IMG/VR virus record: IMGVR_UViG_3300045988_174665
Reading direction: 5' to 3' (one strand)
Length of the DNA stretch: 64,000 nucleotides
Source: a virus
The notes under the pieces were generated by a model that was given only the letters and a program-made list of their open reading frames with translations, ran no database searches and was not told where the DNA came from. Shown here in pieces: positions 52,477 through 64,000 of the stretch. Made by a program: the position numbers and the translations under genes. Position 1 is the first letter of the stretch. Each line of letters opens with the position of its first letter.

Positions 52477-52490
52477 TTCTCTTTCTCTCC

Positions 52491-53309
52491 TTAACCAAAA
52501 TAACCACTATAATCTAAGATTACTGGCTGATTAGTTTTAAAATCAAAACCTACATTACCTGCGTGAATATCATTTATATGCATCTCATTAATAAAAATGG
52601 ACAATTCTTCAAAATCCTGCCAATTCAAGCGGTTCTGAAAAAGATTGTCAATTGCAATATTATCCCCAACCTCTCCTTTTTCAGATGGAGTTGACCAAGA
52701 AACCAGTGATGAGGGAGCCTTAGAACAGGGAGTACAAAAAACATAAGAACCTGTACAATATCCCTCTTCACTATCGTATCTCTGCTCGTGAGCATAATAC
52801 TTTTCTACCTCTTCAGTGCAAACCCTTACTCTTTCAGAGATATAAAAAGGATAACCATAAAAATATCCTAAAAAATAAGTTCCCGCAAAGCATTGCCTTA
52901 CTTGTGAAAAATCAGCTTCCAGAATTTGAGTTAAGATAGCTTCTTTTTTACAATAATCAATTGCTTCTTTGTAGTCATCTTTAGTAAGATTATGATAATC
53001 TTTATTAAAGTTACTAATCAAATGAGAAGTATATTCCTCATTTGGAATTGTACAATTTCTTTCATCAGTAAAAGGAACTTTAATTACATAATCTTTACCA
53101 AACTGGTATTTTATAATAATAACCCCTTTTGTTGCCCCACTGTCACTTTCATACCAAGCGTTACCAGTTTCATATCTTCCGAAAGCTTTCCTTTGCCAGT
53201 TATGAAAACTGGTACTTGTGCCATTAAGTATAAAAGTATCAAAAGAATACTTTTTTACCAAGTCTTCAATTACTTTTTTAAAAAATAAACGAACTTTATT
53301 TTCAATCAT
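52491..53309 (-). CDS. protein-kinase-like fold protein (tentative)
   Basis: YVIKVP (VAIK-like Lys), INDIHAGNVG (catalytic D.H..N) and ILDYSG (DFG-like). Confidence 0.35.
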   Translation of the reverse strand: MIENKVRLFFKKVIEDLVKKYSFDTFILNGTSTSFHNWQRKAFGRYETGNAWYESDSGATKGVIIIKYQFGKDYVIKVPFTDERNCTIPNEEYTSHLISNFNKDYHNLTKDDYKEAIDYCKKEAILTQILEADFSQVRQCFAGTYFLGYFYGYPFYISERVRVCTEEVEKYYAHEQRYDSEEGYCTGSYVFCTPCSKAPSSLVSWSTPSEKGEVGDNIAIDNLFQNRLNWQDFEELSIFINEMHINDIHAGNVGFDFKTNQPVILDYSGYFG

Positions 53310-53341
53310 TCTTTTCTCGCCTTTCTTTATTTTCTATATAT

Positions 53342-53370
53342 ATTATATAAAAAATTTTTTAAAAAAACAA
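53342..53370 (-). promoter_or_regulatory. conserved promoter-leader (minus strand)
   Basis: TTGTTT (53370-65), 17 bp, TATAAT (53347-42). Confidence 0.5.
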
Positions 53371-53622
53371 GTTTTAAAAAATTACCTGATATGAAACACC
53401 ATAATTAATAATTGAACAAGATAAATCAATTTTATTTTTAAAAGCTATCTTAAATACCTGACATATAGAAGGAGGGAATAAGGAAAACTCTGGTGAATAC
53501 TGAATATAGACCTTAAAAAATTTCAAAAATTTTCTGCTGTTTTTTAGGAGTGACTTTAAAGCAATCACCACCAACCTCTTGTGTGAATATGTTTTTCTTT
53601 AAAAAAATATAATCTCCTATCT

Positions 53623-54495
53623 TCATTTTAATGCTCCTTTCTCCTTCATTTCTGTTAATCTTACTGCTACTTCTACAGTTATAGTATCAAAATACTCAAG
53701 AAAAATCTGTTGCAAAAGTCCTGATGCGTTTTTTTCTGACCATTTTTTATCTGTGTCTAAAGTATAGGTTTTATCGTCTTCAAATAATTCTATCGAAGGA
53801 ATCTCATAAAATTTTTCTGGCGACAAATCTTCTTTAAATATATTGATTAAATTATTAACATTAGAAAAAGTGATTGCTTTATATTCTTCTGCATTATATT
53901 TATATTCAAGAATCATGCGAGAAGAAAAACCAGAAAAATTTGTGTACATTTCTGAAATTGAGACACCGTCGAAAATTGCAAATAACCAATTAATATGGTA
54001 AAAAACTCTATACCACTTTTGTTTGCAACGAGAACAACTAGTTATCATTCCCATCACTTGACGATAAAGAACAGAATAATTTTGAAAAAATACCTGATTA
54101 ACTTTTGATTTAAGCTGTTCGTAAAATTCTTTATATAATGGATTAACTCTTATTGTGCTACTTAGAATTGGTTCAAAATAGGTAAAATTTCCTTTAAAGA
54201 AACTTGTAATAAACTTTCTGATATCAACAGTCTTAATCTTTCCATTATTTACTACAAGCTCATGGCAATCAATCTGTTTGTTTAGACAAAATTCTTCATA
54301 GGTTGGAAAAATGACCGCCACAGCATCATAATCACTTAGATTTGTTGCTAATTCATAATTTTGACTGCCAATTAAAGATATAAAGAAAATTTCTCTGCCA
54401 CCGTCGCTTAAAATTTTTTCATAACCCCTTAATATTGCATCTACTTTATCTGCATAGTCCTTATTTAACAGACTTACCCTATCGTATCTATACAT
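53623..54495 (-). CDS. Pol-beta-superfamily nucleotidyltransferase (RlaP / PF10127-like)
   Basis: GSQNYELATNLSDYD matches the GS-x(9-13)-DxD nucleotidyltransferase motif. Adjacent to the RNA ligase gene. Confidence 0.55.
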   Translation of the reverse strand: MYRYDRVSLLNKDYADKVDAILRGYEKILSDGGREIFFISLIGSQNYELATNLSDYDAVAVIFPTYEEFCLNKQIDCHELVVNNGKIKTVDIRKFITSFFKGNFTYFEPILSSTIRVNPLYKEFYEQLKSKVNQVFFQNYSVLYRQVMGMITSCSRCKQKWYRVFYHINWLFAIFDGVSISEMYTNFSGFSSRMILEYKYNAEEYKAITFSNVNNLINIFKEDLSPEKFYEIPSIELFEDDKTYTLDTDKKWSEKNASGLLQQIFLEYFDTITVEVAVRLTEMKEKGALK

Positions 54496-54524
54496 TTTTT
54501 CGCCCCTTTTTATTTTCTATATAT

Positions 54525-54553
54525 ATTATATAAAAAATTTTTTAAAAAAGCAA
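54525..54553 (-). promoter_or_regulatory. conserved promoter-leader (minus strand)
   Basis: TTGCTT (54553-48), 17 bp, TATAAT (54530-25). Confidence 0.5.
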
Positions 54554-54575
54554 AAAAAGAGAGGTTAACCTCTCT

Positions 54576-55769
54576 TTAATCGTGATGCTTAAGCAGATAT
54601 TCTCTCGAAACATTTTTAAAGCTAAAATCAGTCTTTGGATTTCTCAATACAATTCCCTCTCTATATACAGAAGGATTAACAACCGACTTCGCAGTCGCAA
54701 CTTTCTTAAATTCGTCCAAATCTTTAGGAAGCTTATAATGAGCATCGAGAATTGGGACAAATTTCATTCCCATTTCATTTACCACCAATTGTGCCTCAGT
54801 AGAAGGTACTCTACCTCTGTCTGAACGAATAAAATTAAAGATGTATAAATCATCTTCTTTGAGCTTCAAAGGATTACCTTGAACGCTGCCTACAGATTCG
54901 CCTTGAACACAAACATAATCAAGCTCAGGATTCTGTTTTAAATATGTTTCAAGTTGCTCTCTAATATGGTATTTAAAAGCCATATCCCAATAAATGTTAT
55001 GGTCGTGATAGCAATTTTGTTTCTCATCTTTCTGTCTTATATTTCGAGAAAGAACATAAAATTCAAACTTATTTCTTCTCTTCTTTTTTCTTTCAAGAAT
55101 ATAAGTTGAAGAAGTACCGTCCAACTTCTCAGTTACAATCCAATCATCCTCATTATTAAGAATAAAGGGAATGTTCTCAACTCTCTCTTCGTCGGTTTTA
55201 TGAATATAAGGGAAGTGAGTTGGAAAAGCCTTTGGACTATCTTTCTTTTTGCCCAAAAAGACAAAGAGAAGTTTTCTACCCCACTCCCTCTTCATAAGCC
55301 AACGGAATGGCTTCTTTTTCATAATATTTTTATGTCTTGCCGCCATTGACATATATTTAATATCTTTAGCTTTGTTAGCCTTACGAATATTATCATCTTG
55401 AGAAATATAAGTTACTCCAAGCTTCTGTCCAACATCAGAATGAAGTGGTAAATCTTTAAATTCTGGAAAAGCAGACAGCGGCATTAGAAGTCCTTGTGAA
55501 ATAACTTTACACATTCTTTGAGTCTTTACTTTAAAATTACGCTTTGCCATAAAAGTAAATCTCTCATCGTTGTCAGGAACTTTTGAGTCAATTTCAAAGT
55601 AAATACCTTTCTTTTTAGTTTCGTCATTAGGGTCAAAGTCGCCCTTTCCTACTACGCAATGCCAGCCACCAACAGTTGCTAATTCAACCCTATCGTAACC
55701 TTCCAATGGAGTGACCTTATCAACCTCTACAATATAAGCTAACATTCTCTCGCCTTTTTCGTTTAACAT
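54576..55769 (-). CDS. ATP-dependent RNA ligase with an N-terminal OB/tRNA_bind-like domain (Rnl5/DraRnl-like)
   Basis: N-terminus AYIVEVDKVTPLEGYDRVELATVGGWHCVV is OB-like. Nucleotidyltransferase motif I is TEKLDGTS (KxDG). Confidence 0.75.
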   Translation of the reverse strand: MLNEKGERMLAYIVEVDKVTPLEGYDRVELATVGGWHCVVGKGDFDPNDETKKKGIYFEIDSKVPDNDERFTFMAKRNFKVKTQRMCKVISQGLLMPLSAFPEFKDLPLHSDVGQKLGVTYISQDDNIRKANKAKDIKYMSMAARHKNIMKKKPFRWLMKREWGRKLLFVFLGKKKDSPKAFPTHFPYIHKTDEERVENIPFILNNEDDWIVTEKLDGTSSTYILERKKKRRNKFEFYVLSRNIRQKDEKQNCYHDHNIYWDMAFKYHIREQLETYLKQNPELDYVCVQGESVGSVQGNPLKLKEDDLYIFNFIRSDRGRVPSTEAQLVVNEMGMKFVPILDAHYKLPKDLDEFKKVATAKSVVNPSVYREGIVLRNPKTDFSFKNVSREYLLKHHD

Positions 55770-56035
55770 TATACATCATCCTTCCATTTTTTCGTTCTCA
55801 TTTCAATAATATAATCTATTACTTTTTCATATTCTGTTTCTGTTAAAGAAAGTAGTGGCACGACTGTCTTATCAAAATTTGAAAAACCCGCCATTTTCAT
55901 AAAGTCATTAACAAATTCTCCGATTACCCTATAGGTATCAATTCCCAATTCGGGGTATGTATCTCTTGATACTCTACTCACTGTTTTAGAACCAATCTCA
56001 TTGGTATTTTCATAGCTCATTTTTAACTTAATCAT
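55769..56035 (-). CDS. hypothetical small protein
   Basis: 88-aa ORF coupled to the ligase gene. Confidence 0.4.
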   Translation of the reverse strand: MIKLKMSYENTNEIGSKTVSRVSRDTYPELGIDTYRVIGEFVNDFMKMAGFSNFDKTVVPLLSLTETEYEKVIDYIIEMRTKKWKDDV

Positions 56036-56273
56036 TTTTATAATCCTCCAACTTAACGAGTTTTAAAACTCGATAGACCTCGGGAGGTACAAAACCAAGT
56101 TTTTGCAAATCTTCATCCTTTTCTATTTGGTGGTATACAGAAATTCCATCTTCAAGAAAAACAATACTATCTCCTACAATAAGTTCTGACCAATTAACAG
56201 CGTCACTTAATTCAAATAACTGACCGTCAATTTTTAAAACTATATTATCAAACTTTATTGGTCTGGTTATCAT
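56028..56273 (-). CDS. hypothetical small protein
   Basis: ORF 56028..56333. Start set to MITRPIKF (56273), downstream of the conserved promoter-leader. Confidence 0.4.
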   Translation of the reverse strand: MITRPIKFDNIVLKIDGQLFELSDAVNWSELIVGDSIVFLEDGISVYHQIEKDEDLQKLGFVPPEVYRVLKLVKLEDYKND

Positions 56274-56304
56274 TTTAAAACTCCTTTTCTTATTTTCTAT
56301 AAAT

Positions 56305-56333
56305 ATTATATAGAATTTTTTTAAAAAAAGCAA
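56305..56333 (-). promoter_or_regulatory. conserved promoter-leader (minus strand)
   Basis: TTGCTT (56333-28), 17 bp, TATAAT (56310-05). Confidence 0.5.
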
Positions 56334-56334
56334 A

Positions 56335-57987
56335 TTATAAATATTGTTTAATTAACTCAGAAAAGTTTCTTAAAAAATGAATCGAAATGGTGTCTTTTTG
56401 TAGGGCCGCTGTTCGCTGTATATCCCAAGCATTTTTAATGCCTGCCTGAGATTGCTGCGTTGGATAAAGTATTTCTGGAGTTGTAATAGTAACTCGAACC
56501 AATTTAGATAAATTTTTTTCTTTTGTATAATCTGTAATTGCCCGATAAATTAAATATAAGAAAAAGGACAAGGGAATTAATATACCGTTCAAGTTCATAA
56601 TGTGAATAGCATTTGTGGTTGTTTCTTTAAAATCTCCAATAGAAGAGGCATCGTCAAATAATAAATATGCCACATCCTGAGCTAATAAACGGCTTAAATC
56701 TTCTTTATAATTTTCTTGATTACCAATTGCCCCTTTTCCTAATTGTAAAATTGCTCCAACCACATAAACAAAATTTTTATCTATATTAGAGAAAATTTCT
56801 TTAAAAGAATCCATTTTAATAGCTGTGCCGGCGGAGTAACCTCTCTTAGAAAAGTTTTCATTTAAGGTATATAATTTAGAAGAACTATAAACAATAAAGC
56901 CATTATTAATTTTATCTAATCTCTGTCTTAAAATTTCAAATGCTCTATTATTATCCACATAATTACCTAAAGAGTTTTCTTTTGTAATTTTTTCTATAGC
57001 GTCTTTATCTATACCATAAGTATAAATATTATCCGCTTTAATCTTTTTCTCTCCAGAACCAATTCCTTCAATTTTGTATCCTTGATTTTTATTGTTTTGT
57101 AACATAAAGATGAAGTTTTCCAAAAATTCTTGTTCTAAACCGCCTTGACCAGCCGCTGTCTGCATAGCAACTTTGTTCTTTCTAGTGTTACCCAAAATCG
57201 CCTGTTTACAACTCATTAAGCTAACTCCTCTTTTACTTTTACTTTCTTTAATTCTCTTTTTAATTGAATTTTTAATTTTATCAACTTGATACACTTGGCA
57301 CATATTCCGCACGAAGGGGTTGGTGGCAGCCTTGCCTCTATATTTTTCTAAAGCTTCTACAACTTCGGCATAAGCGTTAGAATAATCTTTCCCAGTTTTA
57401 TTTAATCCATTTTCTTGATTAGCACTGAATTGTAAAATTAAAGCTTCTTGTACAATTTCTGGCATTACCTCGTCAATTACATTTTCAATTGCTGAATTAA
57501 TTTTTACTCCTTTTTTAATTTGACTAATAATTTTTCGAGAAATTTTTCCCTCATATTTATCCCAAACCTTACCAAAATAAGTGCCAAAAAAGGCAGTAAC
57601 TGTTTTTTGTCCCTTGGTATTCTTTATTAAGGCTACATTTCTTTCATAAACTTTTTTTAAGTTCATCGTTTCATTAAGAAGCTCAATTATTTTCTTTGCT
57701 CCATCTGCGGAGGCTGTCGAATCTTTTACTCCCCTTCCTACATTAATACCATAAACTTTTCTTAAAAGGGCTTTTTCTTTCTTTTCTTCATTTTGAGCTA
57801 GTCTTAATAATTGCTTGGCAGCGGTGACGTCTTCTGAACCCAGAGCATTTCTGAATTTACCACCGTCCCTCAAATTTCTTTTAATTGTATCGTAAGTTTT
57901 TCTATAAGTCGGTCCACTGTCTTTTAATCTTTCGTAAAAAACATACATACTAGACAAAGAGCGACTTTGTATGTCTAAAGCTGGCAT
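56335..57987 (-). CDS. large hypothetical protein (550 aa)
   Basis: Long ORF with an AGGAGG RBS. No motif recognised by eye. Confidence 0.5.
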   Translation of the reverse strand: MPALDIQSRSLSSMYVFYERLKDSGPTYRKTYDTIKRNLRDGGKFRNALGSEDVTAAKQLLRLAQNEEKKEKALLRKVYGINVGRGVKDSTASADGAKKIIELLNETMNLKKVYERNVALIKNTKGQKTVTAFFGTYFGKVWDKYEGKISRKIISQIKKGVKINSAIENVIDEVMPEIVQEALILQFSANQENGLNKTGKDYSNAYAEVVEALEKYRGKAATNPFVRNMCQVYQVDKIKNSIKKRIKESKSKRGVSLMSCKQAILGNTRKNKVAMQTAAGQGGLEQEFLENFIFMLQNNKNQGYKIEGIGSGEKKIKADNIYTYGIDKDAIEKITKENSLGNYVDNNRAFEILRQRLDKINNGFIVYSSSKLYTLNENFSKRGYSAGTAIKMDSFKEIFSNIDKNFVYVVGAILQLGKGAIGNQENYKEDLSRLLAQDVAYLLFDDASSIGDFKETTTNAIHIMNLNGILIPLSFFLYLIYRAITDYTKEKNLSKLVRVTITTPEILYPTQQSQAGIKNAWDIQRTAALQKDTISIHFLRNFSELIKQYL

Positions 57988-58056
57988 AATTCCTCCTATA
58001 AAAAAAGAGCGTTATTCACGCTCTTATGTATATAAAACAGCCTCTATTGAAGCCGA

Positions 58057-58818
58057 TTAGGACAATTGTACAACCTCGTCCAGTAATAAAGTCATATTGG
58101 AAGTTAATGGTTGGTTTGCGTGGAAATGCCCACAATACCAATGTGTGAAAGTAATTTTATCATAAACCTCTTCTAAAAATTCTTCCATAGAAGTATCCGC
58201 TTCTCCATAATTAAAAGGAAGAAATAATTCTGTGGGTTCATATTTAAGTGGACAAGTATGACTAAAAATATAATCATATGAGTTATTTTTTGAAATAATT
58301 TCAAAAATTTCCTTTTTCTTCTCTTCATCCATTTGTTCATCGGGATACCAATATCCCCTTTTATGAACTACTCTCCAATATTTATCAATTGAATACGCCC
58401 CACCAAGTACAAGACACTTTTTCCCTAAAATTGTAATTACTCCATCATCAGGGAATAAAATATTAGAATACTTTTTTTCTACCCAACAATTACATTTTAA
58501 ATCTCCTCTACATTGAATTTTTTGATAAGAAGGAATATGCTCGGGGCGGCAATCGTGATTACCTTGAATACAAATTAAAGTAATTGGTAAATTACTAATT
58601 TTTTGCTTAATCTTTTCTCTATAAGACTTACTTTTATCTATAAGAGGCTCTCCCCATTTTAAACCAGTATTCATTTCATCATAAATATATCCATAATTGA
58701 TTCCAGTATCACCCAAAAGAATTAAATAATCTTCTTTAGTGGTATTATTTTCCCTGCAAAATTGAGGTAAAAAGCCAAACTGACCGTGAGTATCCCCTCT
58801 TACAAAAATTCTTCCCAT
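58057..58818 (-). CDS. Ser/Thr-phosphatase-type metallophosphoesterase
   Basis: ORF 58057..58911 runs into the tRNA-Gln gene. Start set to MGRIFVRGDTHG (58818), which follows GAGGAGAAAGGA. Motifs GDTHG, GD, GNHD and GHFH. Confidence 0.75.
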   Translation of the reverse strand: MGRIFVRGDTHGQFGFLPQFCRENNTTKEDYLILLGDTGINYGYIYDEMNTGLKWGEPLIDKSKSYREKIKQKISNLPITLICIQGNHDCRPEHIPSYQKIQCRGDLKCNCWVEKKYSNILFPDDGVITILGKKCLVLGGAYSIDKYWRVVHKRGYWYPDEQMDEEKKKEIFEIISKNNSYDYIFSHTCPLKYEPTELFLPFNYGEADTSMEEFLEEVYDKITFTHWYCGHFHANQPLTSNMTLLLDEVVQLS

Positions 58819-58863
58819 TCCTTTCTCCTCTCTTATATACAAAAATCCCTTATAAAGGGAACT

Positions 58864-58938
58864 TGGCAGCGGAGAAGAGAATCGAACTCCTACCCGTTGG
58901 GTCAAAGCCAACTGTACTAACCGTTATACTACTCCGCT
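58864..58938 (-). tRNA. tRNA-Gln (anticodon UUG)
   Basis: Hand-folded cloverleaf: acceptor AGCGGAG/CTCCGCT, anticodon arm GTTGG-CTTTGAC-CCAAC, T-loop TTCGATT, G73, CCA encoded. Confidence 0.85.
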
Positions 58939-59574
58939 ATATTTAATTTAATAACTTATTTTAGCCATATAAAGACCTTCGCCTTACTTTGATTTAGTTT
59001 TCTTCTATATTCAGCCACTAAGAAAACATACTTGAGCCTTGGGGAGCTACCCCAAAACGATATGCCCTATACCTCTTTAGAGGCAACTAAGCTTAGAAGG
59101 GAATGATTACCCTTAACTTTCACCCACCATCCAAAAAATATAATATCTTTTTAACATAAAAGGTATTTTCATCATTGTTTTTCTATTTACGGTATTGAGC
59201 TACTCGCACATTAAACTTGCCTTATAGTTAAGTTACCTTAACATCACTACCACACCCCTTATTTGAGTTACTAAGGTTTGCTAATTTCTCAGGTTAGCCT
59301 AACTTAGCTTATTCTTTCACTGAAAGCGTCTATTACGGAGCGGACAAGAATTTGCCTTTAAAAGCAACTAATCAAGCACATCTTTCCCACCAAGAAGACC
59401 CGTCTTTTATCTCCGCCCTTATTAGGTCACCCTAATAAGTTCTCGTTGATTTAAAGTATCCTTAAAATCCTTACTAATTGGAATTATTGGAAAGATTCTC
59501 GGCACGATGGCATTCGTCTTCACCGAGGTTTATATGATTAAAATAAACTATTAAATTTTCAAGGTACAATTAAA
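58939..59574 (-). ncRNA. about 636-nt ORF-free structured spacer: candidate large ncRNA (ROOL/GOLLD-like context)
   Basis: No ORF of 60 aa or more on either strand. Many hairpins on the minus strand, e.g. CUUAUUAGG-GUGA-CCUAAUAAG, UUGGGG-UAGC-UCCCCAA, CUCGG...CCGAG and GGCGGA...UCCGCU. Flanked by tRNA genes. Confidence 0.4.
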
Positions 59575-59648
59575 TGGAGTGGATAAAGGGAATCGAACCC
59601 TCATCCTCGGTTTGGAAGACCAATGTTTTACCATTAAACTATATCCAC
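59575..59648 (-). tRNA. tRNA-Gly (anticodon UCC)
   Basis: Acceptor GTGGATA/TATCCAC, anticodon arm TTGGT-CTTCCAA-ACCGA, U73, CCA encoded. Confidence 0.85.
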
Positions 59649-59684
59649 ATTTATTACCTTAAATTTTATAAGGCAAAATAAATT

Positions 59685-59924
59685 TTAATCTTCTTTAATC
59701 TCTGGCTCAATAATAATAAAATCTCTTATCTTCATCCAGATATCATTTTCACTTTCTACCCACAGCTCATTAAATTCAAGAGCGTGCAAAGCACCTAAAA
59801 CAGATTTTGCATTAACACAAAAACCATTACTATCCTTTACCACGATTTTACCCTCAAGCTGTGAAGTAATATGAGCAAAATTAATTGCATCACTTGAAGT
59901 ATCTAATCTAATCTTTGCTCTCAT
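59685..59924 (-). CDS. small HPr-like domain protein (tentative)
   Basis: 79 aa. VNAKSVLGALHALEF..L.VESEND resembles the HPr core (NAKS...L....G....I.A.G.D). Embedded in the tRNA island with its own promoter-leader. Confidence 0.35.
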   Translation of the reverse strand: MRAKIRLDTSSDAINFAHITSQLEGKIVVKDSNGFCVNAKSVLGALHALEFNELWVESENDIWMKIRDFIIIEPEIKED

Positions 59925-59959
59925 TTTTTTTATCCTTCCTTTCTTAACTTTCTATAAAT

Positions 59960-59988
59960 ATTATATAGAAATTTTAAAAGATTTTCAA
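59960..59988 (-). promoter_or_regulatory. conserved promoter-leader (minus strand)
   Basis: TTGAAA (59988-83), 17 bp, TATAAT (59965-60). Confidence 0.45.
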
Positions 59989-59992
59989 ATTT

Positions 59993-60069
59993 TGGTGCTC
60001 TTGAAAGGATTCGAACCTTCACTTGATAGAGCCTAAATCTATTGCCTCTTCCAATTGGGCTACAAGAGC
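59993..60069 (-). tRNA. tRNA with anticodon UAG (Leu by anticodon) but a short variable loop
   Basis: Acceptor GCTCTTG/CAAGAGC, anticodon arm ATAGA-TTTAGGC-TCTAT, 5-nt variable loop, A73, CCA. The acceptor stem nearly matches that of the tRNA-Ile(UAU) gene. Confidence 0.6.
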
Positions 60070-60190
60070 ATATAAAGCTTTTAATTAAGCGAATACATTT
60101 TTCAGTATTACTTTAAATGCGGAGGCTATCAAATCTCACTTCCCTCACATACTTAATTTGGCGATTTGACCTAACCATAAGCTTTTTTAA

Positions 60191-60264
60191 TGGAGATACT
60201 ATTTGGAATTGAACCAAAAATCAAGCTTTTGCAGAGCCTTGCCTTACCATTTGGCTATAGTATC
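60191..60264 (-). tRNA. tRNA-Cys (anticodon GCA)
   Basis: Acceptor GATACTA/TAGTATC, anticodon loop CTGCAAA, U73, CCA. Confidence 0.8.
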
Positions 60265-60267
60265 ATA

Positions 60268-60343
60268 TGGAGCTTCTAGTCAGATTCGAACTGACGGTCT
60301 TTGGATTACTAAACCAATGCTTTACCAACTAAGCTACAGAAGC
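60268..60343 (-). tRNA. tRNA-Thr (anticodon AGU, tentative)
   Basis: Acceptor GCTTCTG/TAGAAGC, anticodon arm TTGGT-TTAGTAA-TCCAA with a U-U at positions 31-39. G1-C72 and C2-G71 fit Thr identity. A34 is unusual for bacteria. Confidence 0.6.
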
Positions 60344-60528
60344 ATAATCTTATTGTCTAGACTTTGACCACACTTAATGTTTGGATAAGATACTCAAACT
60401 TGGGTTTACCTATATCGTCGCTCCCTCAAACCACGGAGTATTTTTCGATTATACTCAACGCCTTCTTTCATCGCCCAAATATGGCAGGTATTTATTCCAT
60501 TATTATAATTTTAAAATTATAATATAAT

Positions 60529-60612
60529 TGGTAGGAGAGGATGGATTCGAACCATCGAAGCGAAACGCAACAGATTTACAGTCTGCCCCTTTTACCACTC
60601 AGGAACTCTCCT
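60529..60612 (-). tRNA. tRNA-Tyr (anticodon GUA), class II
   Basis: Acceptor AGGAGAG/CTCTCCT, anticodon arm GCAGA-CTGTAAA-TCTGT, long variable arm, CCA. Directly abuts tRNA-Lys. Confidence 0.8.
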
Positions 60613-60688
60613 TGGTGTGCCATCGGAGATTCGAACTCCGGACTTCTTGATTAAAAGTCAAGTATTCTACCAACTGAATTAATGGCAC
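60613..60688 (-). tRNA. tRNA-Lys (anticodon UUU)
   Basis: Acceptor GTGCCAT/ATGGCAC, anticodon arm CTTGA-CTTTTAA-TCAAG, A73, CCA. Confidence 0.85.
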
Positions 60689-60827
60689 AAATTTAATAAG
60701 AATGACACTCTTTGCTTGTATATTCGCAATGACCATCTCATTCTTATCTTTAAATTACTTAAAACCAGAGGGTGACAATCCTCATTTCCATAAAGGCGAT
60801 AGATGCCCGTTCTATCCTTGGTTTTAA

Positions 60828-60904
60828 TGGTGCTCTTAGATAGGATTGAACTATCAACCTCTCACTTATAAGGTGAGTGCTCTAACCAACTGAGCTATAA
60901 GAGC
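60828..60904 (-). tRNA. tRNA-Ile (anticodon UAU)
   Basis: Acceptor GCTCTTA/TAAGAGC, D arm GCTC-AGTTGGTTA-GAGC, anticodon arm CTCAC-CTTATAA-GTGAG, A73, CCA. Confidence 0.8.
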
Positions 60905-61212
60905 ATTTAAACTAAATAAGACGCATCTTATTTAGTTAGGCTTTATCCGCAGAATCAGCCGCAATTCATCATTTTAGTCTTACAAACCCACTTACTAAGA
61001 CTTGCTTTGATTTCGTTCAAAGGTTTTTCTAAAGCGGTTACGCCAATTTTTTAAAATTGGAAAAACTAATTAAATTAATTAGACAGAGAATCTTCTCTTT
61101 TTTAAGAATAGATATAATACTGGTAATTTACATCCGCTTTTAGTTATTTCTTCTTTTAAAGAAATCCCTTCAATTACAGTCCTATTGCGGCAAGGGCTAA
61201 CAGTATTTTTAG
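60905..61212 (-). ncRNA. about 308-nt ORF-free structured spacer (candidate ncRNA)
   Basis: Minus-strand hairpins CCAAUUUU/AAAAUUGG, GUCUUA...UAAGAC, AUUUCUU...AAGAAAU, an 11-bp stem ACUAAAUAAGA/UCUUAUUUAGU, and long-range AAGCGG/CCGCUU. Confidence 0.3.
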
Positions 61213-61280
61213 GGGAAGCAACGAGGCTTGAACTCGTACCAATCCTAGGAATTATTCTAACCAATTGAAACTATACTTCC
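61213..61280 (-). tRNA. tRNA-like gene with a truncated anticodon arm (no usable anticodon loop, no encoded CCA)
   Basis: Acceptor GGAAGTA/TGCTTCC, D arm GTTT-CAATTGGTTA-GAAT and T arm ACGAG-TTCAAGC-CTCGT are present. Only 15 nt (ATTCCTAGGATTGGT) occupy the place of the anticodon arm plus variable loop. Confidence 0.45.
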
Positions 61281-61309
61281 CTTAACAGTCAACTTAATCA
61301 TTGACTTAA

Positions 61310-61385
61310 TGGCTCTTACAGCAGGACTCGAACCTGCAACTCTCTGATTAACAGTCAGATGCTCTACCGATTGAACTATGTAAGA
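61310..61385 (-). tRNA. tRNA-Asn (anticodon GUU)
   Basis: Acceptor TCTTACA/TGTAAGA, anticodon arm TCTGA-CTGTTAA-TCAGA, G73, CCA. Confidence 0.8.
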
Positions 61386-61767
61386 ATATTTAAAGGTGCA
61401 GGGATAGCCTAACCCCACATCGAGCAGGAAAACACCAAGAATTTTTCTGCTCATTGTTTAAGCATCCCGACCAGTTTCTCGGTAACTGCGGCCAAGGCTT
61501 CCTTTTCGTTATATCCCGTTAGTAGAAACCATCAATTTTTCTTCTAAGGCAGATAACTCCAGTACTGCACTAACTTCTGGATATACGTTCAAGCAAGTAT
61601 CACTTACCAAGTTTAACGACATTGACAAGTCGGCTAGATTAGATATAGAATTTTAATCTATACCCTACATATGGGAAGGACAATGACCTGGCTGTTTTTA
61701 CTCTATAGGTTTCAGCCTAACTATTAGAGTAAGGAATCTCATCTTTCTGAGGCGTCACATTGTCCTC
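61386..61767 (-). ncRNA. about 382-nt ORF-free structured spacer (candidate ncRNA)
   Basis: Long-range GGACAAUG/CAUUGUCC, hairpins UACUCUAAUAG...CUAUAGAGUA, GAGCAG...CUGCUC and CCGA-GAAACUGG-UCGG. The track ORFs here (61079-61454) are spurious. Confidence 0.35.
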
Positions 61768-61848
61768 TGGAGCAGATGAAGAGAATCGAACTCCTGCTAT
61801 CAGTTTCAGTTCGGAGAACTGATGTACTAACCACTATACTACATCTGC
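61768..61848 (-). tRNA. non-canonical tRNA-like gene (anticodon loop UCUCCGA with C33; 10-nt variable region)
   Basis: Good acceptor (GCAGATG/CATCTGC), D and T arms, and CCA. The anticodon stem 3' strand is duplicated (ACTGA-A-ACTGA). Reads as UCC only if C33 is tolerated. Confidence 0.45.
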
Positions 61849-61860
61849 ATATAAGATAAT

Positions 61861-61936
61861 TGGCTGTTCATTGGAGATTCGAACTCCAGACCACCGTGTA
61901 CACCAGTAGCTCTTCCTAACTGAGACTTAATGAACA
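61861..61936 (-). tRNA. non-canonical tRNA-like gene (anticodon uncertain)
   Basis: Acceptor TGTTCAT/ATGAACA, T arm TGGAG-TTCGAAT-CTCCA, CCA. The best anticodon arm, TACTG-GTGTACA-CGGTG, has pyrimidine 37 and a 3-nt variable loop. Confidence 0.4.
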
Positions 61937-62304
61937 ATATATTATAAATACTAGATTCAGATAAGCAAGACTTTACAAATCTCTAGAATATCCGTGAAAT
62001 AATCGTTATGTCTGCAGAACATATAATTATTTCATCCTACTTATCTGGTAAGCTTTCTTGGGCGAGATGAACTTACTAACTCTACCTTAGAATAAAAATA
62101 GCATCTAACATCATTTTATCCCTCTATAGAGATTTACTTAAATTTTAGTTATACAAGCAGCCCGTGTTTACCGTTACACTAACAACCGCATATATTGCCT
62201 TGCTTGTGATATAAGCTCTGCAAAGCATAGAGTTTGTATCGTACCACTCAATCCCTTATTTATTCGCTTTATTTTAGGTATCTAATAATTGCGATTAGAT
62301 TTAC
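61937..62304 (-). ncRNA. about 368-nt ORF-free structured spacer (candidate ncRNA)
   Basis: Hairpins GAAAUAAU...AUUAUUUC (with a nested AUGU...ACAU), ACAAGCA...UGCUUGU, GCUU-AUAUCAC-AAGC and UCUAAU...AUUAGA. Confidence 0.3.
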
Positions 62305-62395
62305 TGGCGGCGAGGGTGAGATTCGAACTCACACACCTCTTTCCAGCTACTAACAGTTTAGCAAACTGCTTCCTTACCATTAGGATTACCTCGCC
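62305..62395 (-). tRNA. tRNA-Ser (anticodon GCU), class II
   Basis: Acceptor GGCGAGG/CCTCGCC, anticodon arm GCAGT-TTGCTAA-ACTGT, long variable arm, G73, CCA. Confidence 0.8.
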
Positions 62396-62398
62396 ATA

Positions 62399-62426
62399 TG
62401 GCTAGAGTGGTTGGACTCGAACCAAC
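62399..62426 (-). other. isolated tRNA 3' half (T arm, acceptor 3' strand, GCCA) fused to ncRNA unit B
   Basis: GTTGG-TTCGAGT-CCAAC-CACTCTA-G-CCA, with no complementary TAGAGTG 5' strand anywhere nearby. Lies 2 nt after unit B and 3 nt before tRNA-Ser. Confidence 0.5.
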
Positions 62427-62428
62427 TT

Positions 62429-62512
62429 ATATTCGGAAATTTAAAGTTCTTATAATATAGATTAAAAGTCTATTCCTAATGGGTAGAAGGATGAACCTCA
62501 ACAGCCGAATAT
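62429..62512 (-). ncRNA. structured RNA unit B of a five-member paralogous array
   Basis: Outer helix AUAUUCGG/CCGAAUAU; internal loop CUGU/AAUUU; inner helix UGAGGUUC/GAACUUUA (two G-U pairs); AUCCUUCUA; hairpins UCCU...AGGA and AUAGA-CUUUUAA-UCUAU. Confidence 0.6.
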
Positions 62513-62532
62513 TTATTTAACTTACATTAAAT

Positions 62533-62561
62533 ATTATAGCATATATTTTATTATTTGTCAA
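62533..62561 (-). promoter_or_regulatory. consensus promoter driving ncRNA unit B and downstream tRNAs
   Basis: Minus strand: TTGACA (62561-56), 17 bp, TATAAT (62538-33). Lies about 20 nt upstream of the unit B outer helix. Confidence 0.6.
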
Positions 62562-62591
62562 ATATTTTTTATTATTTAAAATTTGTTCGAT

Positions 62592-62721
62592 GCGGTAATT
62601 TTAACATCTACATAATACTATTGCACTACCAACTGTGCTACATCCCGCTTTAATGGGATGGTGGGAATCGAACCCACATCACATAGTCCCCTGATATAGA
62701 AGGATGATGTTAGTCAGCCGC
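62592..62721 (-). ncRNA. structured RNA unit A carrying a circularly permuted tRNA-like module
   Basis: GCGG-CUGAC-UAACAUC-AUCCUUCUAUAUCAGG-GG-ACUAU-GUGAU-[GUGGG UUCGAUU CCCAC]-[CAUCCC AUUAAAGC GGGAUG]-UA-[GCAC AGUUGGUA GUGC]-A-AUAGU-...-GAUGUUA-AAAUUA-CCGC. Confidence 0.65.
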
Positions 62722-62735
62722 ATATTTTTTATATT

Positions 62736-62812
62736 GTGGAAATTTGTTTCTCTAAAATCTTAATCCCAAATCAAGTGCTTGTTAGCGTAGAAGGATGAAA
62801 AACAATAGCCAC
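62736..62812 (-). ncRNA. structured RNA unit C
   Basis: GUGG-CUAU-UGUUUUUC-AUCCUUCUA...GAGAAACA-AAUUU-CCAC, with one G-U pair in the inner helix. Confidence 0.55.
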
Positions 62813-62825
62813 TTTGAGAAAGAGA

Positions 62826-62888
62826 TGTGGGAATTTAATGCTCTTTTAAAACCGTTTATTATATAGAAGGATGAGCATTACAGCCACA
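62826..62888 (-). ncRNA. structured RNA unit D
   Basis: GUGG-CUG-UAAUGCUC-AUCCUUCUA...GAGCAUUA-AAUUC-CCAC. Confidence 0.55.
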
Positions 62889-62899
62889 AATTATAAATA

Positions 62900-62991
62900 G
62901 TGGAAATCGGACTTTCTATCTTATTATTATGGAGGTGGCTAAACCACCGAAATTCTTTTTTTTTCTTAGAAGGAAGAAAGTCCATAGCCAC
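62900..62991 (-). ncRNA. structured RNA unit E
   Basis: GUGG-CUAU-GGACUUUC-UUCCUUCUA...GAAAGUCC-GAUUU-CCAC, with an internal hairpin GGUGG-UUUAG-CCACC. Confidence 0.55.
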
Positions 62992-63015
62992 AATAACTTC
63001 ATTTTATTTCACAAA

Positions 63016-64000
63016 TTATAACAAAGCAAATAGTTCATCGGTATCAAAAGCTGTGACAATCGGAACTTCTGGCTTTTCCTTTATAACGGGTTTTGTGGTA
63101 CCCGTAACCTCGTCAAACTCTTTTGCAATTTCATAAGGTACTGTTGTATCATTACTAAAAATGATATCCGCTTCATTTCTATTTGTAACAATACTACCTC
63201 TTGCAATAGCGTTCATCATTACAAGGTCATAAATATTTGCCTTATTAAGATGTGTTAAACCATAGCAGGTTGCAGTTACACCCTGTAAATTACTTTCAAG
63301 ATTATTGCCATAAAACCTCGGACTTCCATTCTGAAGGTTCATATCACACCAGATGAACTTACGCTCAACACAATCAAATATAACAGGTATAGCAACAGTA
63401 CTATCAGCAGTTAAGTCAATCTTCATTTCAACTGTTTTCGGCTCGAATATCTCACCGCTATTTACATCTTCTCTTTCCATCCATCCGAAACGGCAATTGG
63501 GAAGCGTAGAAAAATGCTGTCGTGTAAAACTATAAACCTGAAATGCAATGTATCTACCAGCGTTTTTAGCAACTGCATCAATGTCCACATCAATAAACTC
63601 TGCTACACCATCACCGTTAATATTTCCGCCATTGGTAATGTCACCCGAATGATATGCTCTATATTTTGCAGAGCGAAGTTGTGTATATGATACACGGTCA
63701 ACATACTGCCAATTTTCGTCATAAATGGTTGCAGAAAGGTCAATATCAACCCTGTCTTCACCCCAACCATTTCTCGCCTTATCGGTATTAGTCCACCAGA
63801 TAAAACCACGAACAGCTGTAGCGTCTTTCTTAATGGGCAACTTACTACCACGAACAATGGTCTTAACAGCCTTACTTGCACTTCTCTGACTAAACGGAAC
63901 AAGATAATTTTTGAAATCCTCATCAATATAAACTTTTCCGAGGAAATCTTTTTCCTTATACTGTTCAATTAAAGCATCACGGCAAATCGTTGCAATATTG
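63016..64000 (-). CDS. TerD-domain protein (partial; N-terminus lies beyond the window)
   Basis: The track ORF 63016..63840 begins at a TTG, but the frame stays open to 64000. DIDLSATIYDENWQYVDRVSY...YHSGDITNGGNINGDGVAEFIDVDIDAV...YIAFQVYSF matches the TerD fold pattern. ORF 63603..63968 is an out-of-frame artefact. Confidence 0.6.
   Translation of the reverse strand, partial: NIATICRDALIEQYKEKDFLGKVYIDEDFKNYLVPFSQRSASKAVKTIVRGSKLPIKKDATAVRGFIWWTNTDKARNGWGEDRVDIDLSATIYDENWQYVDRVSYTQLRSAKYRAYHSGDITNGGNINGDGVAEFIDVDIDAVAKNAGRYIAFQVYSFTRQHFSTLPNCRFGWMEREDVNSGEIFEPKTVEMKIDLTADSTVAIPVIFDCVERKFIWCDMNLQNGSPRFYGNNLESNLQGVTATCYGLTHLNKANIYDLVMMNAIARGSIVTNRNEADIIFSNDTTVPYEIAKEFDEVTGTTKPVIKEKPEVPIVTAFDTDELFALL

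What the first reader, a model, noticed from the sequence alone, without database searches (positions are those of the whole stretch)
58939..62304. tRNA island with about 1.7 kb of long, ORF-free, hairpin-dense spacers (candidate large ornate ncRNAs, ROOL/GOLLD-type context)
Phage tRNA clusters are normally tightly packed. Here four spacers are 308-636 nt long: 58939-59574, 60905-61212, 61386-61767 and 61937-62304. They contain only spurious ORFs, look more G+C-rich than the flanking coding DNA by eye, and are full of stable hairpins and long-range complementarities on the tRNA strand. Examples are a 9-bp stem capped by a GUGA tetraloop at about 59400, GGACAAUG/CAUUGUCC at about 61650-61760, and GAAAUAAU/AUUAUUUC at about 61990-62040. 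Shorter spacers also close with terminal helices, e.g. AAAGCUU/AAGCUUU around 60070-60190. From memory, the large phage-associated RNAs ROOL (about 580 nt) and GOLLD (about 800 nt) are typically found next to tRNA genes in phages and prophages of Firmicutes/Fusobacteria. The 636-nt spacer between tRNA-Gln and tRNA-Gly fits that context and size. I cannot verify the consensus by eye.
Basis: partly seen in the sequence, partly recalled or inferred. Interest (0 to 1): 0.75.

Follow-up and report, generated by a model that had tools for sequence, protein, structure and literature searches.

The report
ROOL RNA inside phage tRNA island
One of the long gaps in this gut-phage tRNA cluster encodes a textbook ROOL RNA (a known cage-forming giant RNA), the other flagged gaps are unconserved filler, and just beside them lies a tandem array of an apparently undescribed small structured RNA.

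Summary
The tRNA island is real: 11 tRNAs on the minus strand, with long ORF-poor spacers. The Lys-Ile spacer holds a skipping-rope RNA.

The other three flagged spacers (60905-61212, 61386-61767, 61937-62304) match no Rfam family. Two are missing from a phage that is 96% identical. None recurs in about 25 related loci or in IMG/VR, except a ~110-nt tRNA-Ser trailer. They contain tRNA debris and two uncalled tRNA-like elements. The island is a mosaic of exchangeable cassettes.

Just outside the given coordinates (62432-62992, minus strand) is the only long non-coding stretch conserved across the phage family. It holds five tandem hairpin units with an invariant UCAUCCUUCUA loop motif. Covariation is strong over 56 copies (score 0.76 against 0.18 in shuffles). 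One unit carries a permuted, YrlA-type tRNA-like domain. The units sit in or at the edge of tRNA clusters and flank a conserved 759-aa protein. They are not in Rfam 15 and show none of the Ro60 or Y-RNA hallmarks.

ROOL here is a new member of a known family. The hairpin family is the novel lead.

The parts
58954..59551 (-). ROOL RNA gene, full length
   Evidence: Rfam RF03087 scores 301.6 bits (gathering score 99.1), E 2e-68, model positions 1-574 of 574. The same gene occurs in L003, L004 and L014 at 301.6-302.9 bits. Only 5 of 598 bases differ from L004 and L014.
58864..58938 (-). tRNA-Gln(ttg). Its 5' end lies 15 nt after the ROOL match.
59575..59648 (-). tRNA-Gly(tcc). Its 3' end lies 23 nt before the ROOL match.
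58846..58860 (-). Intrinsic-terminator-like hairpin plus T-run, directly after tRNA-Gln
59960..59988 (-). Sigma-70-like promoter (TTGAAA-17-TATAAT). It is part of a promoter+RBS cassette (59925-59992) repeated many times in this phage and its relatives.
59685..59924 (-). 79-aa protein gene inside the island (no family assigned)
   Evidence: ORF with a strong RBS. The exact protein is found on 12 contigs. It is 76% identical in amino acids to the L015 orthologue.
59993..60904 (-). tRNA block Ile, Lys, Tyr, Thr, Cys, Leu in transcription order, with short spacers
60760..60826 (-). Skipping-rope RNA, 1 nt after tRNA-Ile
   Evidence: Rfam RF02924 scores 44.3 bits (gathering score 36.7). Also found in L014 (40.1 bits) and in L028/L029 (65.4 and 60.9 bits) next to tRNAs.
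60905..61211 (-). Unassigned AT-rich spacer (G+C 0.32) with local palindromes
   Evidence: No Rfam hit. Conserved only in the 96% relative L014. No hit in IMG/VR.
61212..61281 (-). tRNA-like element with acceptor, D and T arms but a truncated anticodon arm. Probably a tRNA pseudogene.
   Evidence: Read from the sequence. Not called by ARAGORN or the Rfam tRNA model. Fold shown.
61310..61385 (-). tRNA-Asn(gtt)
61386..61767 (-). Unassigned spacer, G+C 0.40. Lineage-specific.
   Evidence: No Rfam hit. Absent from L014. No homologue in any related locus, INPHARED or IMG/VR. z-score -2.1 on the minus strand and -3.6 on the plus strand.
61768..61848 (-). tRNA-Gly(tcc), second copy
61861..61936 (-). 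tRNA-like element with an encoded CCA. It folds as a cloverleaf but is not called as a tRNA.
61937..62161 (-). Unassigned spacer, lineage-specific
   Evidence: No Rfam hit. Absent from L014. No hit in IMG/VR.
62162..62187 (-). Remnant of the 5' half of a tRNA-His-like gene
   Evidence: 92% identity over 26 nt to tRNA-His(gtg) of L014.
62195..62304 (-). Conserved trailer of tRNA-Ser, function unknown
   Evidence: tRNA-Ser plus this trailer are about 90% identical to L028 8930-9140, a phage whose neighbouring protein is only 72% identical.
62305..62395 (-). tRNA-Ser(gct)
62407..62426 (-). tRNA T-arm and acceptor remnant
   Evidence: 20 of 20 nt match the 3' part of a tRNA from a related locus.
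62432..62509 (-). Hairpin unit u5 of the UCAUCCUUCUA family
   Evidence: Covariance model R1 scores 49.9 bits. Fold.
62533..62561 (-). Perfect sigma-70 promoter (TTGACA-17-TATAAT with TG), conserved in relatives. It lies upstream of u5 and the tRNA block.
62591..62722 (-). Hairpin unit u4. Its apex (62619-62685) is a circularly permuted tRNA-like domain ordered T arm, closed acceptor stem, D arm.
   Evidence: Rfam YrlA model positions 23-85 score 37 bits, E 1.7e-6, below the gathering score of 69. Fold. Covariation of the T, acceptor and D stems across relatives is shown.
62735..62813 (-). Hairpin unit u3
   Evidence: R1 scores 51.0 bits.
62826..62888 (-). Hairpin unit u2
   Evidence: R1 scores 51.3 bits. 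Fold.
62899..62992 (-). Hairpin unit u1
   Evidence: R1 scores 48.9 bits.
63016..64000 (-). 3' part of a 759-aa gene that runs past the window end. The full gene is L002 4630-6909. Hairpin units flank it on both sides in every relative examined.

Best explanation
The region is the larger part of a mosaic tRNA/ncRNA island in a ~110-kb siphovirus-like phage from human-gut metagenomes. The ribosome-binding sites suggest a Firmicutes host.

Shown:
- 58954-59551 (minus strand) is a genuine ROOL RNA gene.
- 60760-60826 is a skipping-rope RNA.
- 59685-59924 is a small protein gene.
- The three other long spacers are not conserved. They are variable cassettes that contain decayed tRNA genes.

Inferred for ROOL:
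- ROOL lies in one transcription unit: promoter 59988-59960, the 79-aa gene, tRNA-Gly, ROOL, tRNA-Gln, terminator 58860-58846.
- The ~600-nt RNA is therefore probably cut out of the precursor by the enzymes that mature the flanking tRNAs. The 3'-end machinery (RNase Z type) would cut 23 nt upstream of ROOL, and RNase P would cut 15 nt downstream.
- By homology with the solved ROOL structure it should then assemble, without protein, into a homo-octameric RNA cage during infection.
- What the cage does is unknown for the whole family. Published hypotheses are encapsulation or sequestration of translation-related cargo.

The island changes by cassette exchange at and between tRNA genes. This explains why close relatives carry different spacers.

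Just upstream, at 62432-62992, five tandem copies of a separate small structured RNA belong to the same island. See the novel case.
For: ROOL:
- It covers the full Rfam model at three times the gathering score.
- It is kept almost unchanged in L003, L004 and L014 (5 of 598 differences), while the surrounding DNA is about 97% identical.
- The promoter and terminator are, and the flanking tRNAs.
- The literature describes ROOL as phage or prophage RNA near tRNA islands that forms an octameric nanocage of unknown function (PMC5737381, PMC12286853).

Skipping-rope: above the gathering score here and in three relatives, always beside tRNAs.

Mosaicism:
- L014 lacks window 61390-62349 and carries a PDDEXK_5 gene in place of 60269-60579.
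- L003 is 99.85% identical downstream of 59965 and unrelated upstream.
- ROOL is absent from eight more distant relatives.
- tRNA debris is shown.

No homologues of the three spacers were found anywhere searched.
Against: - There are no expression or end-mapping data. The promoter and terminator are consensus matches only.
- Octamer formation is inferred from family membership and was not tested.
- Lack of conservation does not prove that the other spacers are inert. Only one close relative covers the 61390-62349 interval, and it lacks it, so the covariation test had no material to work on.
- These spacers fold slightly better than shuffles (z about -2).
Confidence: 0.85

Rival explanations
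1. One reading: all four long spacers encode large ornate ncRNAs of the ROOL or GOLLD class.
For: One of the four is ROOL. All have mildly negative folding z-scores. The Asn-Gly spacer is more G+C-rich than its surroundings.
Against: No Rfam match at E up to 10 in the other three. Two of them are absent from a 96% identical phage. No homologue in about 25 related loci, INPHARED or IMG/VR. They hold tRNA debris and pseudo-tRNAs. The opposite strand folds as well or better.
Confidence: 0.07
2. The unassigned spacers are lineage-specific functional RNAs, such as small regulatory RNAs or tRNA trailers. They would be too young or too rare to show conservation.
For: The ~110-nt tRNA-Ser trailer (62195-62304) is about 90% identical in a phage whose neighbouring protein is only 72% identical. 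This hints at selection or recent transfer. The tRNA-like element 61861-61936 folds as a cloverleaf with an encoded CCA.
Against: No covariation data are available. The rest of the spacers have no relatives at all. The region is dispensable in L014.
Confidence: 0.2
3. The five UCAUCCUUCUA units at 62432-62992 act at the DNA level, as repeated promoters, operators or recombination sites, and are not structured RNAs.
For: Sigma-70-like -10 boxes precede some units. The island is recombinogenic.
Against: Two helices covary strongly across 56 copies. 90.8% of cells are paired against 60.7% in shuffles, and 258 cells have double changes against 79. G-U wobble pairs occur only if the tRNA strand is the one read. 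Helix sequences differ between units while staying complementary.
Confidence: 0.05
4. The units are bona fide bacterial Y RNAs of the YrlA family that bind a phage Ro60 (TROVE) protein.
For: Unit u4 has exactly the YrlA-type permuted tRNA-like domain (37 bits, E 1.7e-6) set on a terminal stem. Arrays lie next to one conserved protein. RNA-repair genes are nearby.
Against: The score is below the YrlA gathering score (37 against 69). Model positions 1-22 and 86-114, which form the Ro-binding stem, are unmatched, and the GNCGAA motif is absent. No TROVE domain was found in any tested ORF of the window. The neighbouring protein shows no sequence or fold match to Ro60 structures.
Confidence: 0.07
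5. The units are cis-acting leader or punctuation elements of tRNA operons. They would serve in processing, stabilisation or antitermination rather than as trans-acting RNPs.
For: Copies found away from the 759-aa gene in IMG/VR phages all lie in a tRNA cluster or at its 5' edge on the same strand, sometimes within 6-10 nt of a tRNA. u5 follows a conserved strong promoter and precedes the tRNA block.
Against: Tandem arrays of 5-7 diverged copies, and modular tRNA-like inserts, are not expected of a simple leader. Two copies also sit in the 5' leader of the 759-aa gene.
Confidence: 0.3

Closest known systems
ROOL RNA (Rfam RF03087; Weinberg et al. 2017, PMC5737381; cryo-EM octameric nanocage, PMC12286853)
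   Same: 58954-59551 matches the whole model, including the conserved GUGA-capped hairpin. Its length is 598 nt against a family mean of 581 nt. It lies in a phage, embedded between tRNA genes.
   Different: Nothing structural. The host phage lineage is uncultured gut siphophages of 110-140 kb. ROOL is a sporadic cassette there. It is present only in the window's sub-lineage and is flanked by an RNA-repair-like gene set.
GOLLD RNA
   Same: The same kind of context: phage, tRNA islands, a large RNA-only cage.
   Different: No GOLLD match anywhere in the window or in related loci.
Skipping-rope RNA (Rfam RF02924)
   Same: 60760-60826 scores above the gathering score. It recurs in relatives.
   Different: The published family is typically followed by an intrinsic terminator (PMC5737381). 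Here it is wedged between tRNA-Ile and tRNA-Lys, and no terminator is predicted.
Bacterial Y RNAs, YrlA type (Rfam RF02553; Chen et al. 2014, PMC4201824)
   Same: The architecture of unit u4 and its orthologues: a terminal stem made of the 5' and 3' ends, topped by a permuted tRNA-like domain (T arm, closed acceptor stem, D arm). Several related RNAs are encoded in tandem beside one protein gene.
   Different: There is no Ro-binding GNCGAA helix and no TROVE protein. The conserved elements are different: a GG/CC closing helix, a CUR/AAUUY internal loop and a UCAUCCUUCUA apical strand. Most units have no tRNA-like domain at all.
Type III toxin-antitoxin RNA arrays (ToxI/ToxN). Comparison made from general knowledge.
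   Same: A tandem array of short structured RNA repeats next to a single protein gene.
   Different: ToxI repeats are near-identical 36-nt units upstream of the toxin gene. Here the units are diverged paralogues of 59-143 nt on both sides of the gene, and also at tRNA clusters that have no such gene.

Membership tests
ROOL (RF03087) | Covariance-model score at or above the curated gathering score (99.1 bits) | tested here: met
   301.6 bits, E 2e-68.
ROOL (RF03087) | Full-length match to the multi-junction, pseudoknotted consensus of about 580 nt | tested here: met
   Model positions 1-574 of 574 over 598 nt, not truncated. The conserved hairpins and junction sequences align.
ROOL (RF03087) | Typical context: phage or prophage, close to tRNA genes | tested here: met
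   It lies between tRNA-Gly and tRNA-Gln in a phage with tail genes. Context as described in PMC5737381 and PMC12286853.
ROOL (RF03087) | Assembly into a homo-octameric RNA-only cage | not testable with these tools
   Requires native gel or cryo-EM analysis of the transcript.
GOLLD / HEARO / raiA / group I intron | Any Rfam match in 58400-63000 | tested here: not met
   None at E up to 10.
Skipping-rope (RF02924) | Score at or above the gathering score (36.7 bits) | tested here: met
   44.3 bits, model positions 1-80 of 80. 40.1-65.4 bits in relatives.
Skipping-rope (RF02924) | Intrinsic terminator at the 3' end (PMC5737381) | tested here: not met
   No terminator-like site on the minus strand between 60760 and tRNA-Lys.
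YrlA / bacterial Y RNA (RF02553) | Score at or above the gathering score (69 bits) | tested here: not met
   37 bits, and only model positions 23-85 are matched.
YrlA / bacterial Y RNA (RF02553) | Permuted tRNA-like domain (T arm, closed acceptor stem, D arm) | tested here: met
   Alignment. The three stems covary in relatives.
YrlA / bacterial Y RNA (RF02553) | Ro60-binding stem with the GNCGAA(N0-1)G motif (PMC4201824) | tested here: not met
   The basal stem is unmatched by the model. The conserved basal elements are GG/CC, CUR/AAUUY and UCAUCCUUCUA instead.
YrlA / bacterial Y RNA (RF02553) | Encoded within about 4 kb of a TROVE (Ro60) gene on the same strand | tested here: not met
   No TROVE hit in 30 ORFs of the window and L002 scanned against Pfam. 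The adjacent 759-aa protein has no sequence hit in the PDB. Its low-confidence model has no Ro60 match by fold. The rest of the ~110-kb genome was not seen.
tRNA (for 61212-61281 and 61861-61936) | Called by ARAGORN or by Rfam RF00005 | tested here: not met
   Neither is called, even at E up to 10. The second folds as a cloverleaf with a CCA end.

The most novel reading that the evidence does not exclude
The five tandem hairpins at 62432-62992 (minus strand) appear to belong to an undescribed family of structured RNAs, specific to the tRNA islands of a large clade of gut and environmental siphophages.

Each unit has these parts:
- a 4-5 bp closing helix (NNNGG/CCNNN)
- a conserved CUR/AAUUY internal loop
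- a 6-9 bp helix that is free to vary
- an apical region that opens with the invariant sequence AUCCUUCUA

The apex is a modular slot. In some units it holds a circularly permuted tRNA-like domain.

The units flank a conserved 759-aa protein, with 1-2 copies in its 5' leader and 2-7 copies downstream. That protein has an alpha-helical repeat region and a TerD-like beta-sandwich. Units also occur in tRNA clusters or at their 5' edge elsewhere.

The most novel reading is that they are Y-RNA-like ribonucleoprotein scaffolds or decoys. They would be processed out of tRNA precursors and bound by this protein, a convergent analogue of Ro60/Y RNA that the phage uses in conflicts over tRNA damage and repair.
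Probability: 0.3. Interest if true: 0.75.

Novelty: new member of a known kind. Interest (0 to 1): 0.5.

Why it matters
ROOL's function is unknown even though its cage structure has been solved. This locus places a near-invariant ROOL in a defined tRNA-flanked transcription unit, next to an RNA ligase / kinase / phosphatase gene set. Natural sister phages lack ROOL, and such comparisons could guide functional tests. Still, this is one more member in the expected context.

The more valuable product is the UCAUCCUUCUA hairpin family. It is a strongly covarying RNA absent from Rfam 15. It combines a conserved protein-sized recognition module with an exchangeable apex that can be a tRNA mimic, and it is tied both to tRNA clusters and to one conserved phage protein. 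If confirmed, it would add a second, independent case of tRNA-mimicking modular RNAs of the Y-RNA type, this time in viruses.

Tried and rejected
1. Decayed homing-endonuclease genes in the spacers. tblastn with the PDDEXK_5, HNH and GIY-YIG proteins from related islands gave nothing.
2. Close or distant DNA relatives in INPHARED. Only tRNA hits were found.
3. IMG/VR relatives through the metallophosphatase gene. One distant locus, not informative.
4. Exact 18-25-mers from the three unassigned spacers in IMG/VR. Zero hits.
5. Ro60/TROVE identity of the 759-aa protein.
   - Pfam, PADLOC and PDB sequence searches were all negative.
   - The AlphaFold model was weak (mean pLDDT 60.8). Foldseek gave only generic alpha-solenoid and Ig-like matches at E 0.02 or worse.
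   - NCBIfam gives a sub-threshold match to 'MXAN_6230/SCO0854 family RING domain-containing protein'. The held literature says nothing about that family.
6. The conserved loop as an antisense to the phage's own ribosome-binding sites. The phage mostly uses GGAGG or AAGGAG, and GAAGGAT rarely precedes a start codon. Not supported.
7. Wide cellular distribution of the units. A two-copy pattern scan of GTDB genomes returned at least 120 loci. The covariance model confirmed only L248 and L249 among the 100 loci it was run on (L152-L251). L191 carries a 43%-identical homologue of the 759-aa protein but gave no model hit. About 30 or more chance hits are expected for that pattern.
8. My first two folding scripts timed out, so the coding-DNA controls were not obtained.

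Full report
**Observation.** ARAGORN and the Rfam tRNA model agree on 11 tRNA genes, all on the minus strand, between 58864 and 62395. Every quoted complementarity can be read in the sequence.

Neither program calls them, even at E up to 10. The first has a truncated anticodon arm. The second folds as a cloverleaf with an encoded CCA.

Only the Asn-Gly spacer is clearly more G+C-rich (0.40). The others are 0.32-0.34, against 0.28-0.36 nearby. Folding z-scores are -2.0 to -3.9 on the tRNA strand. For two spacers the opposite strand does as well or better. Hairpin density alone is therefore not decisive.

**Source and setting.** The window is identical to a 109.5-kb human-gut metagenome contig (L002, ENA ERZ918876).
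- Tail genes mark it as a siphovirus-like phage. They include a 2883-aa tape-measure-like protein, Sipho_tail and Prophage_tail.
- Downstream of the island lie a metallophosphatase, a 550-aa protein of unknown function, an RNA ligase (PF09414), an RlaP-like nucleotidyltransferase and an AAA_33/KTI12 kinase. This is an RNA-repair-like set.
- A second tRNA block (Leu, Pro, Met, Thr, Glu) lies beyond the window end. A 759-aa gene separates it from the first block.

**What the spacers are.**
- *Gln-Gly spacer.* It is a ROOL RNA: RF03087, 58954-59551 minus strand, 301.6 bits against a gathering score of 99.1, model positions 1-574 of 574.
- *ROOL transcription unit.* ROOL starts 23 nt after tRNA-Gly and ends 15 nt before tRNA-Gln. 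A sigma-70-like promoter at 59988-59960 precedes a 79-aa gene and tRNA-Gly. A terminator-like hairpin at 58860-58846 follows tRNA-Gln. I infer one transcription unit, with ROOL released by tRNA end-processing.
- *79-aa gene.* It is real. The exact protein occurs on 12 contigs, and an orthologue is 76% identical in amino acids. Its promoter+RBS cassette is repeated many times in this phage and its relatives.
- *Lys-Ile spacer.* It contains a skipping-rope RNA at 44.3 bits against a gathering score of 36.7. The same RNA is found in three relatives next to tRNAs. The terminator described for that family is not seen here.
- *Other families.* No GOLLD, HEARO, raiA or intron match exists.

**The three other flagged spacers.** I gathered relatives through the flanking proteins.
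- L014 is 96-98% identical over shared DNA. It keeps ROOL and skipping-rope but lacks window 61390-62349 entirely. That stretch covers most of tRNA-Ser, the Gly-Ser spacer, the second tRNA-Gly and the Asn-Gly spacer. L014 also has a PDDEXK_5 gene in place of 60269-60579.
- L003 is 99.85% identical downstream of 59965 and unrelated upstream.
- None of about 25 related loci, INPHARED or IMG/VR contains homologues of 60905-61212, 61386-61767 or 61937-62161.
- The spacers hold the 5' half of a tRNA-His-like gene (62162-62187) and a T-arm remnant (62407-62426).
- One sub-element is conserved. tRNA-Ser plus about 110 nt of trailer (62195-62304) is about 90% identical in L028, a much more distant phage.
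- ROOL is confined to the window's sub-lineage. It is absent from L009, L015, L017, L019, L024, L028, L029 and L033. Within the sub-lineage it is nearly invariant, with 5 of 598 differences.

The island is therefore a recombining mosaic. ROOL and skipping-rope are functional cargo, and most other spacer DNA is variable filler.

**A conserved array just outside the coordinates.** The only long non-coding stretch conserved across the family is 62396-63015, between the 759-aa gene and tRNA-Ser. It is 85% identical in L017, and 69-84% identical in parts in L019-L033.
- *Motif.* It contains CATCCTTCTA four times exactly, against 0.19 expected, plus one variant.
- *Unit architecture.* Alignment of the copies shows NNNGG-CUR-(stem)-UCAUCCUUCUA-(apex of 13-100 nt)-GA-(stem')-AAUUY-CCNNN.
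- *First covariation test.* On 32 distinct core sequences, 88.6% of cells pair against 64.7% in shuffles. The covariation score is 0.647 against 0.179, and 0.06-0.11 when partners are slid. I had chosen those 3' ends with a complementarity filter.
- *Second test.* To reduce that selection bias I built a covariance model from these same cores (R1) and collected its matches instead. There are 56 full-length matches in 14 loci, with 90.8% paired against 60.7%, 258 double-change cells against 79, and a score of 0.759 against 0.181, with 0 of 500 shuffles as high. About a third of these loci had also supplied the training cores, and an alignment fitted to the model leans toward its structure.
- *Strand.* G-U pairs fit only the tRNA strand, so this is an RNA.
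- *Copies.* In the window R1 finds u1 (62899-62992), u2 (62826-62888), u3 (62735-62813) and u5 (62432-62509), and nothing else in the 64 kb. It aligns u4 (62591-62722) only partly, at 14.7 bits, because of its long apical insert. u4 was delimited from the motif search and its fold. Two more copies lie in the 5' leader of the 759-aa gene, beyond the window end.
- *Promoter.* A perfect, conserved sigma-70 promoter (62561-62533) sits between u4 and u5.

**The tRNA-like apex.** Unit u4 carries at 62619-62685 a circularly permuted tRNA-like domain. It matches positions 23-85 of Rfam YrlA at 37 bits, E 1.7e-6, below the gathering score of 69. Orthologous and paralogous units in relatives carry similar domains. 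Their T, acceptor and D stems covary.

The hallmarks of true Y RNAs are missing.
- There is no GNCGAA Ro-binding helix.
- No TROVE protein was found among 30 scanned ORFs.
- The neighbouring protein shows no sequence or fold similarity to Ro60. Its model is weak, however (pLDDT 60.8).
- That protein has an all-alpha repeat region and a TerD-like beta-sandwich. It gives a sub-threshold NCBIfam match to the MXAN_6230/SCO0854 family.

**Distribution of the units.**
- In IMG/VR, arrays occur in the loci that carry a homologue of the 759-aa protein (53-95% identity). The order is always unit(s), gene, array.
- Further single or double copies occur without the gene nearby. All six loci inspected lie in a tRNA cluster or at its 5' edge on the same strand, sometimes within 6-10 nt of a tRNA.
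- A GTDB scan was dominated by chance matches. R1, run on 100 of the 120 loci returned, confirmed units only in L248 and L249. L191 carries a 43%-identical homologue of the protein but gave no R1 hit.
- The family is absent from Rfam 15. I found no description of it in the held literature.

**How it probably works.**
- *ROOL.* Identity is shown. Co-transcription with tRNAs, excision by tRNA-processing enzymes and octameric cage assembly are inferred from the anatomy and from the solved family structure (PMC12286853). The biological role is unknown for the whole family.
- *Hairpin units.* RNA structure and genomic association are shown. I favour small RNAs processed out of tRNA-island transcripts. 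Their invariant loop and internal loop would be bound by a protein, with the adjacent 759-aa protein as the obvious candidate. Their apex can present a tRNA mimic.
- *Rival for the units.* They could be a cis-acting leader or punctuation element of tRNA operons. This remains serious.
- *Rejected idea.* An antisense-to-RBS role for the loop was not supported.

**Verdict.** The finding is real and its headline interpretation is right for one spacer. That part is a new member of a known family in its expected context. The claim for the other spacers is not supported. The novel lead is the neighbouring hairpin array.

Noticed in passing
window 62432-62992 (-); also L002 4456-4602: A tandem array of five diverged hairpin units with an invariant UCAUCCUUCUA motif. 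Covariation is strong across 56 copies. One unit carries a YrlA-type permuted tRNA-like domain. The units flank a conserved 759-aa gene and lead tRNA clusters in other phages. They are not in Rfam 15.
   Followed up: yes
window 59925-59992 (-): A ~70-nt promoter+RBS cassette (TTGAAA-17-TATAAT ... GGAAGGA ... ATG). It is repeated many times in L002, L003 and L009 in front of small ORFs. It looks like a family-wide early-type promoter module.
   Followed up: partly
window 51550-58836 (-): An RNA-repair-like gene set directly downstream of the island. It comprises a metallophosphatase, a 550-aa protein of unknown function, an RNA ligase (PF09414 with a PHA02142 OB-fold domain), an RlaP-like nucleotidyltransferase and an AAA_33/KTI12 kinase. 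Relatives add Thg1-like, PTH2 and PhoH genes.
   Followed up: partly
window 62195-62395 (-) and L028 8930-9140: tRNA-Ser plus about 110 nt of trailer is about 90% identical between phages whose neighbouring 759-aa proteins are only 72% identical. This suggests cassette transfer or selection on the trailer.
   Followed up: partly
window 59965 (breakpoint); 60269-60579; 61390-62349: Sharp mosaic breakpoints between near-identical phages (L002, L003, L014). Some fall inside tRNA genes, and PDDEXK_5, HNH or GIY-YIG genes sit at the corresponding places in relatives.
   Followed up: partly
window 61212-61281 and 61861-61936 (-): Two tRNA-like elements that neither ARAGORN nor Rfam calls. One lacks a proper anticodon arm. 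The other folds as a cloverleaf with an odd GUGUACA loop and an encoded CCA.
   Followed up: partly
window 59685-59924 (-): The 79-aa protein contains CVNAKSVLGALHA. From memory this resembles the HPr phosphocarrier signature. Pfam and PHROGs give no hit.
   Followed up: no
window 6517-15168 and 581-5509 (-): Very large tail genes: a 2883-aa tape-measure-like protein (PhageMin_Tail) and a 1642-aa Prophage_tail protein.
   Followed up: no
L017, L024, L028-L033 (upstream of the 759-aa gene); L019 4206-4766: Relatives carry a reverse transcriptase (RVT_1 + YAcAr) next to further tRNA clusters. They also carry TnpB/IS605 insertions with a RAGATH-18 RNA, and L019 has a SAM riboswitch.
   Followed up: no
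L012 19724-20723: A more distant phage encodes a DUF2828/VWA_CoxE protein about 530 nt downstream of tRNA-Asp and tRNA-Asn, across an ORF-free gap. From memory, DUF2828 is TROVE-like, which would make the gap a possible true Ro/Y-RNA locus.
   Followed up: no
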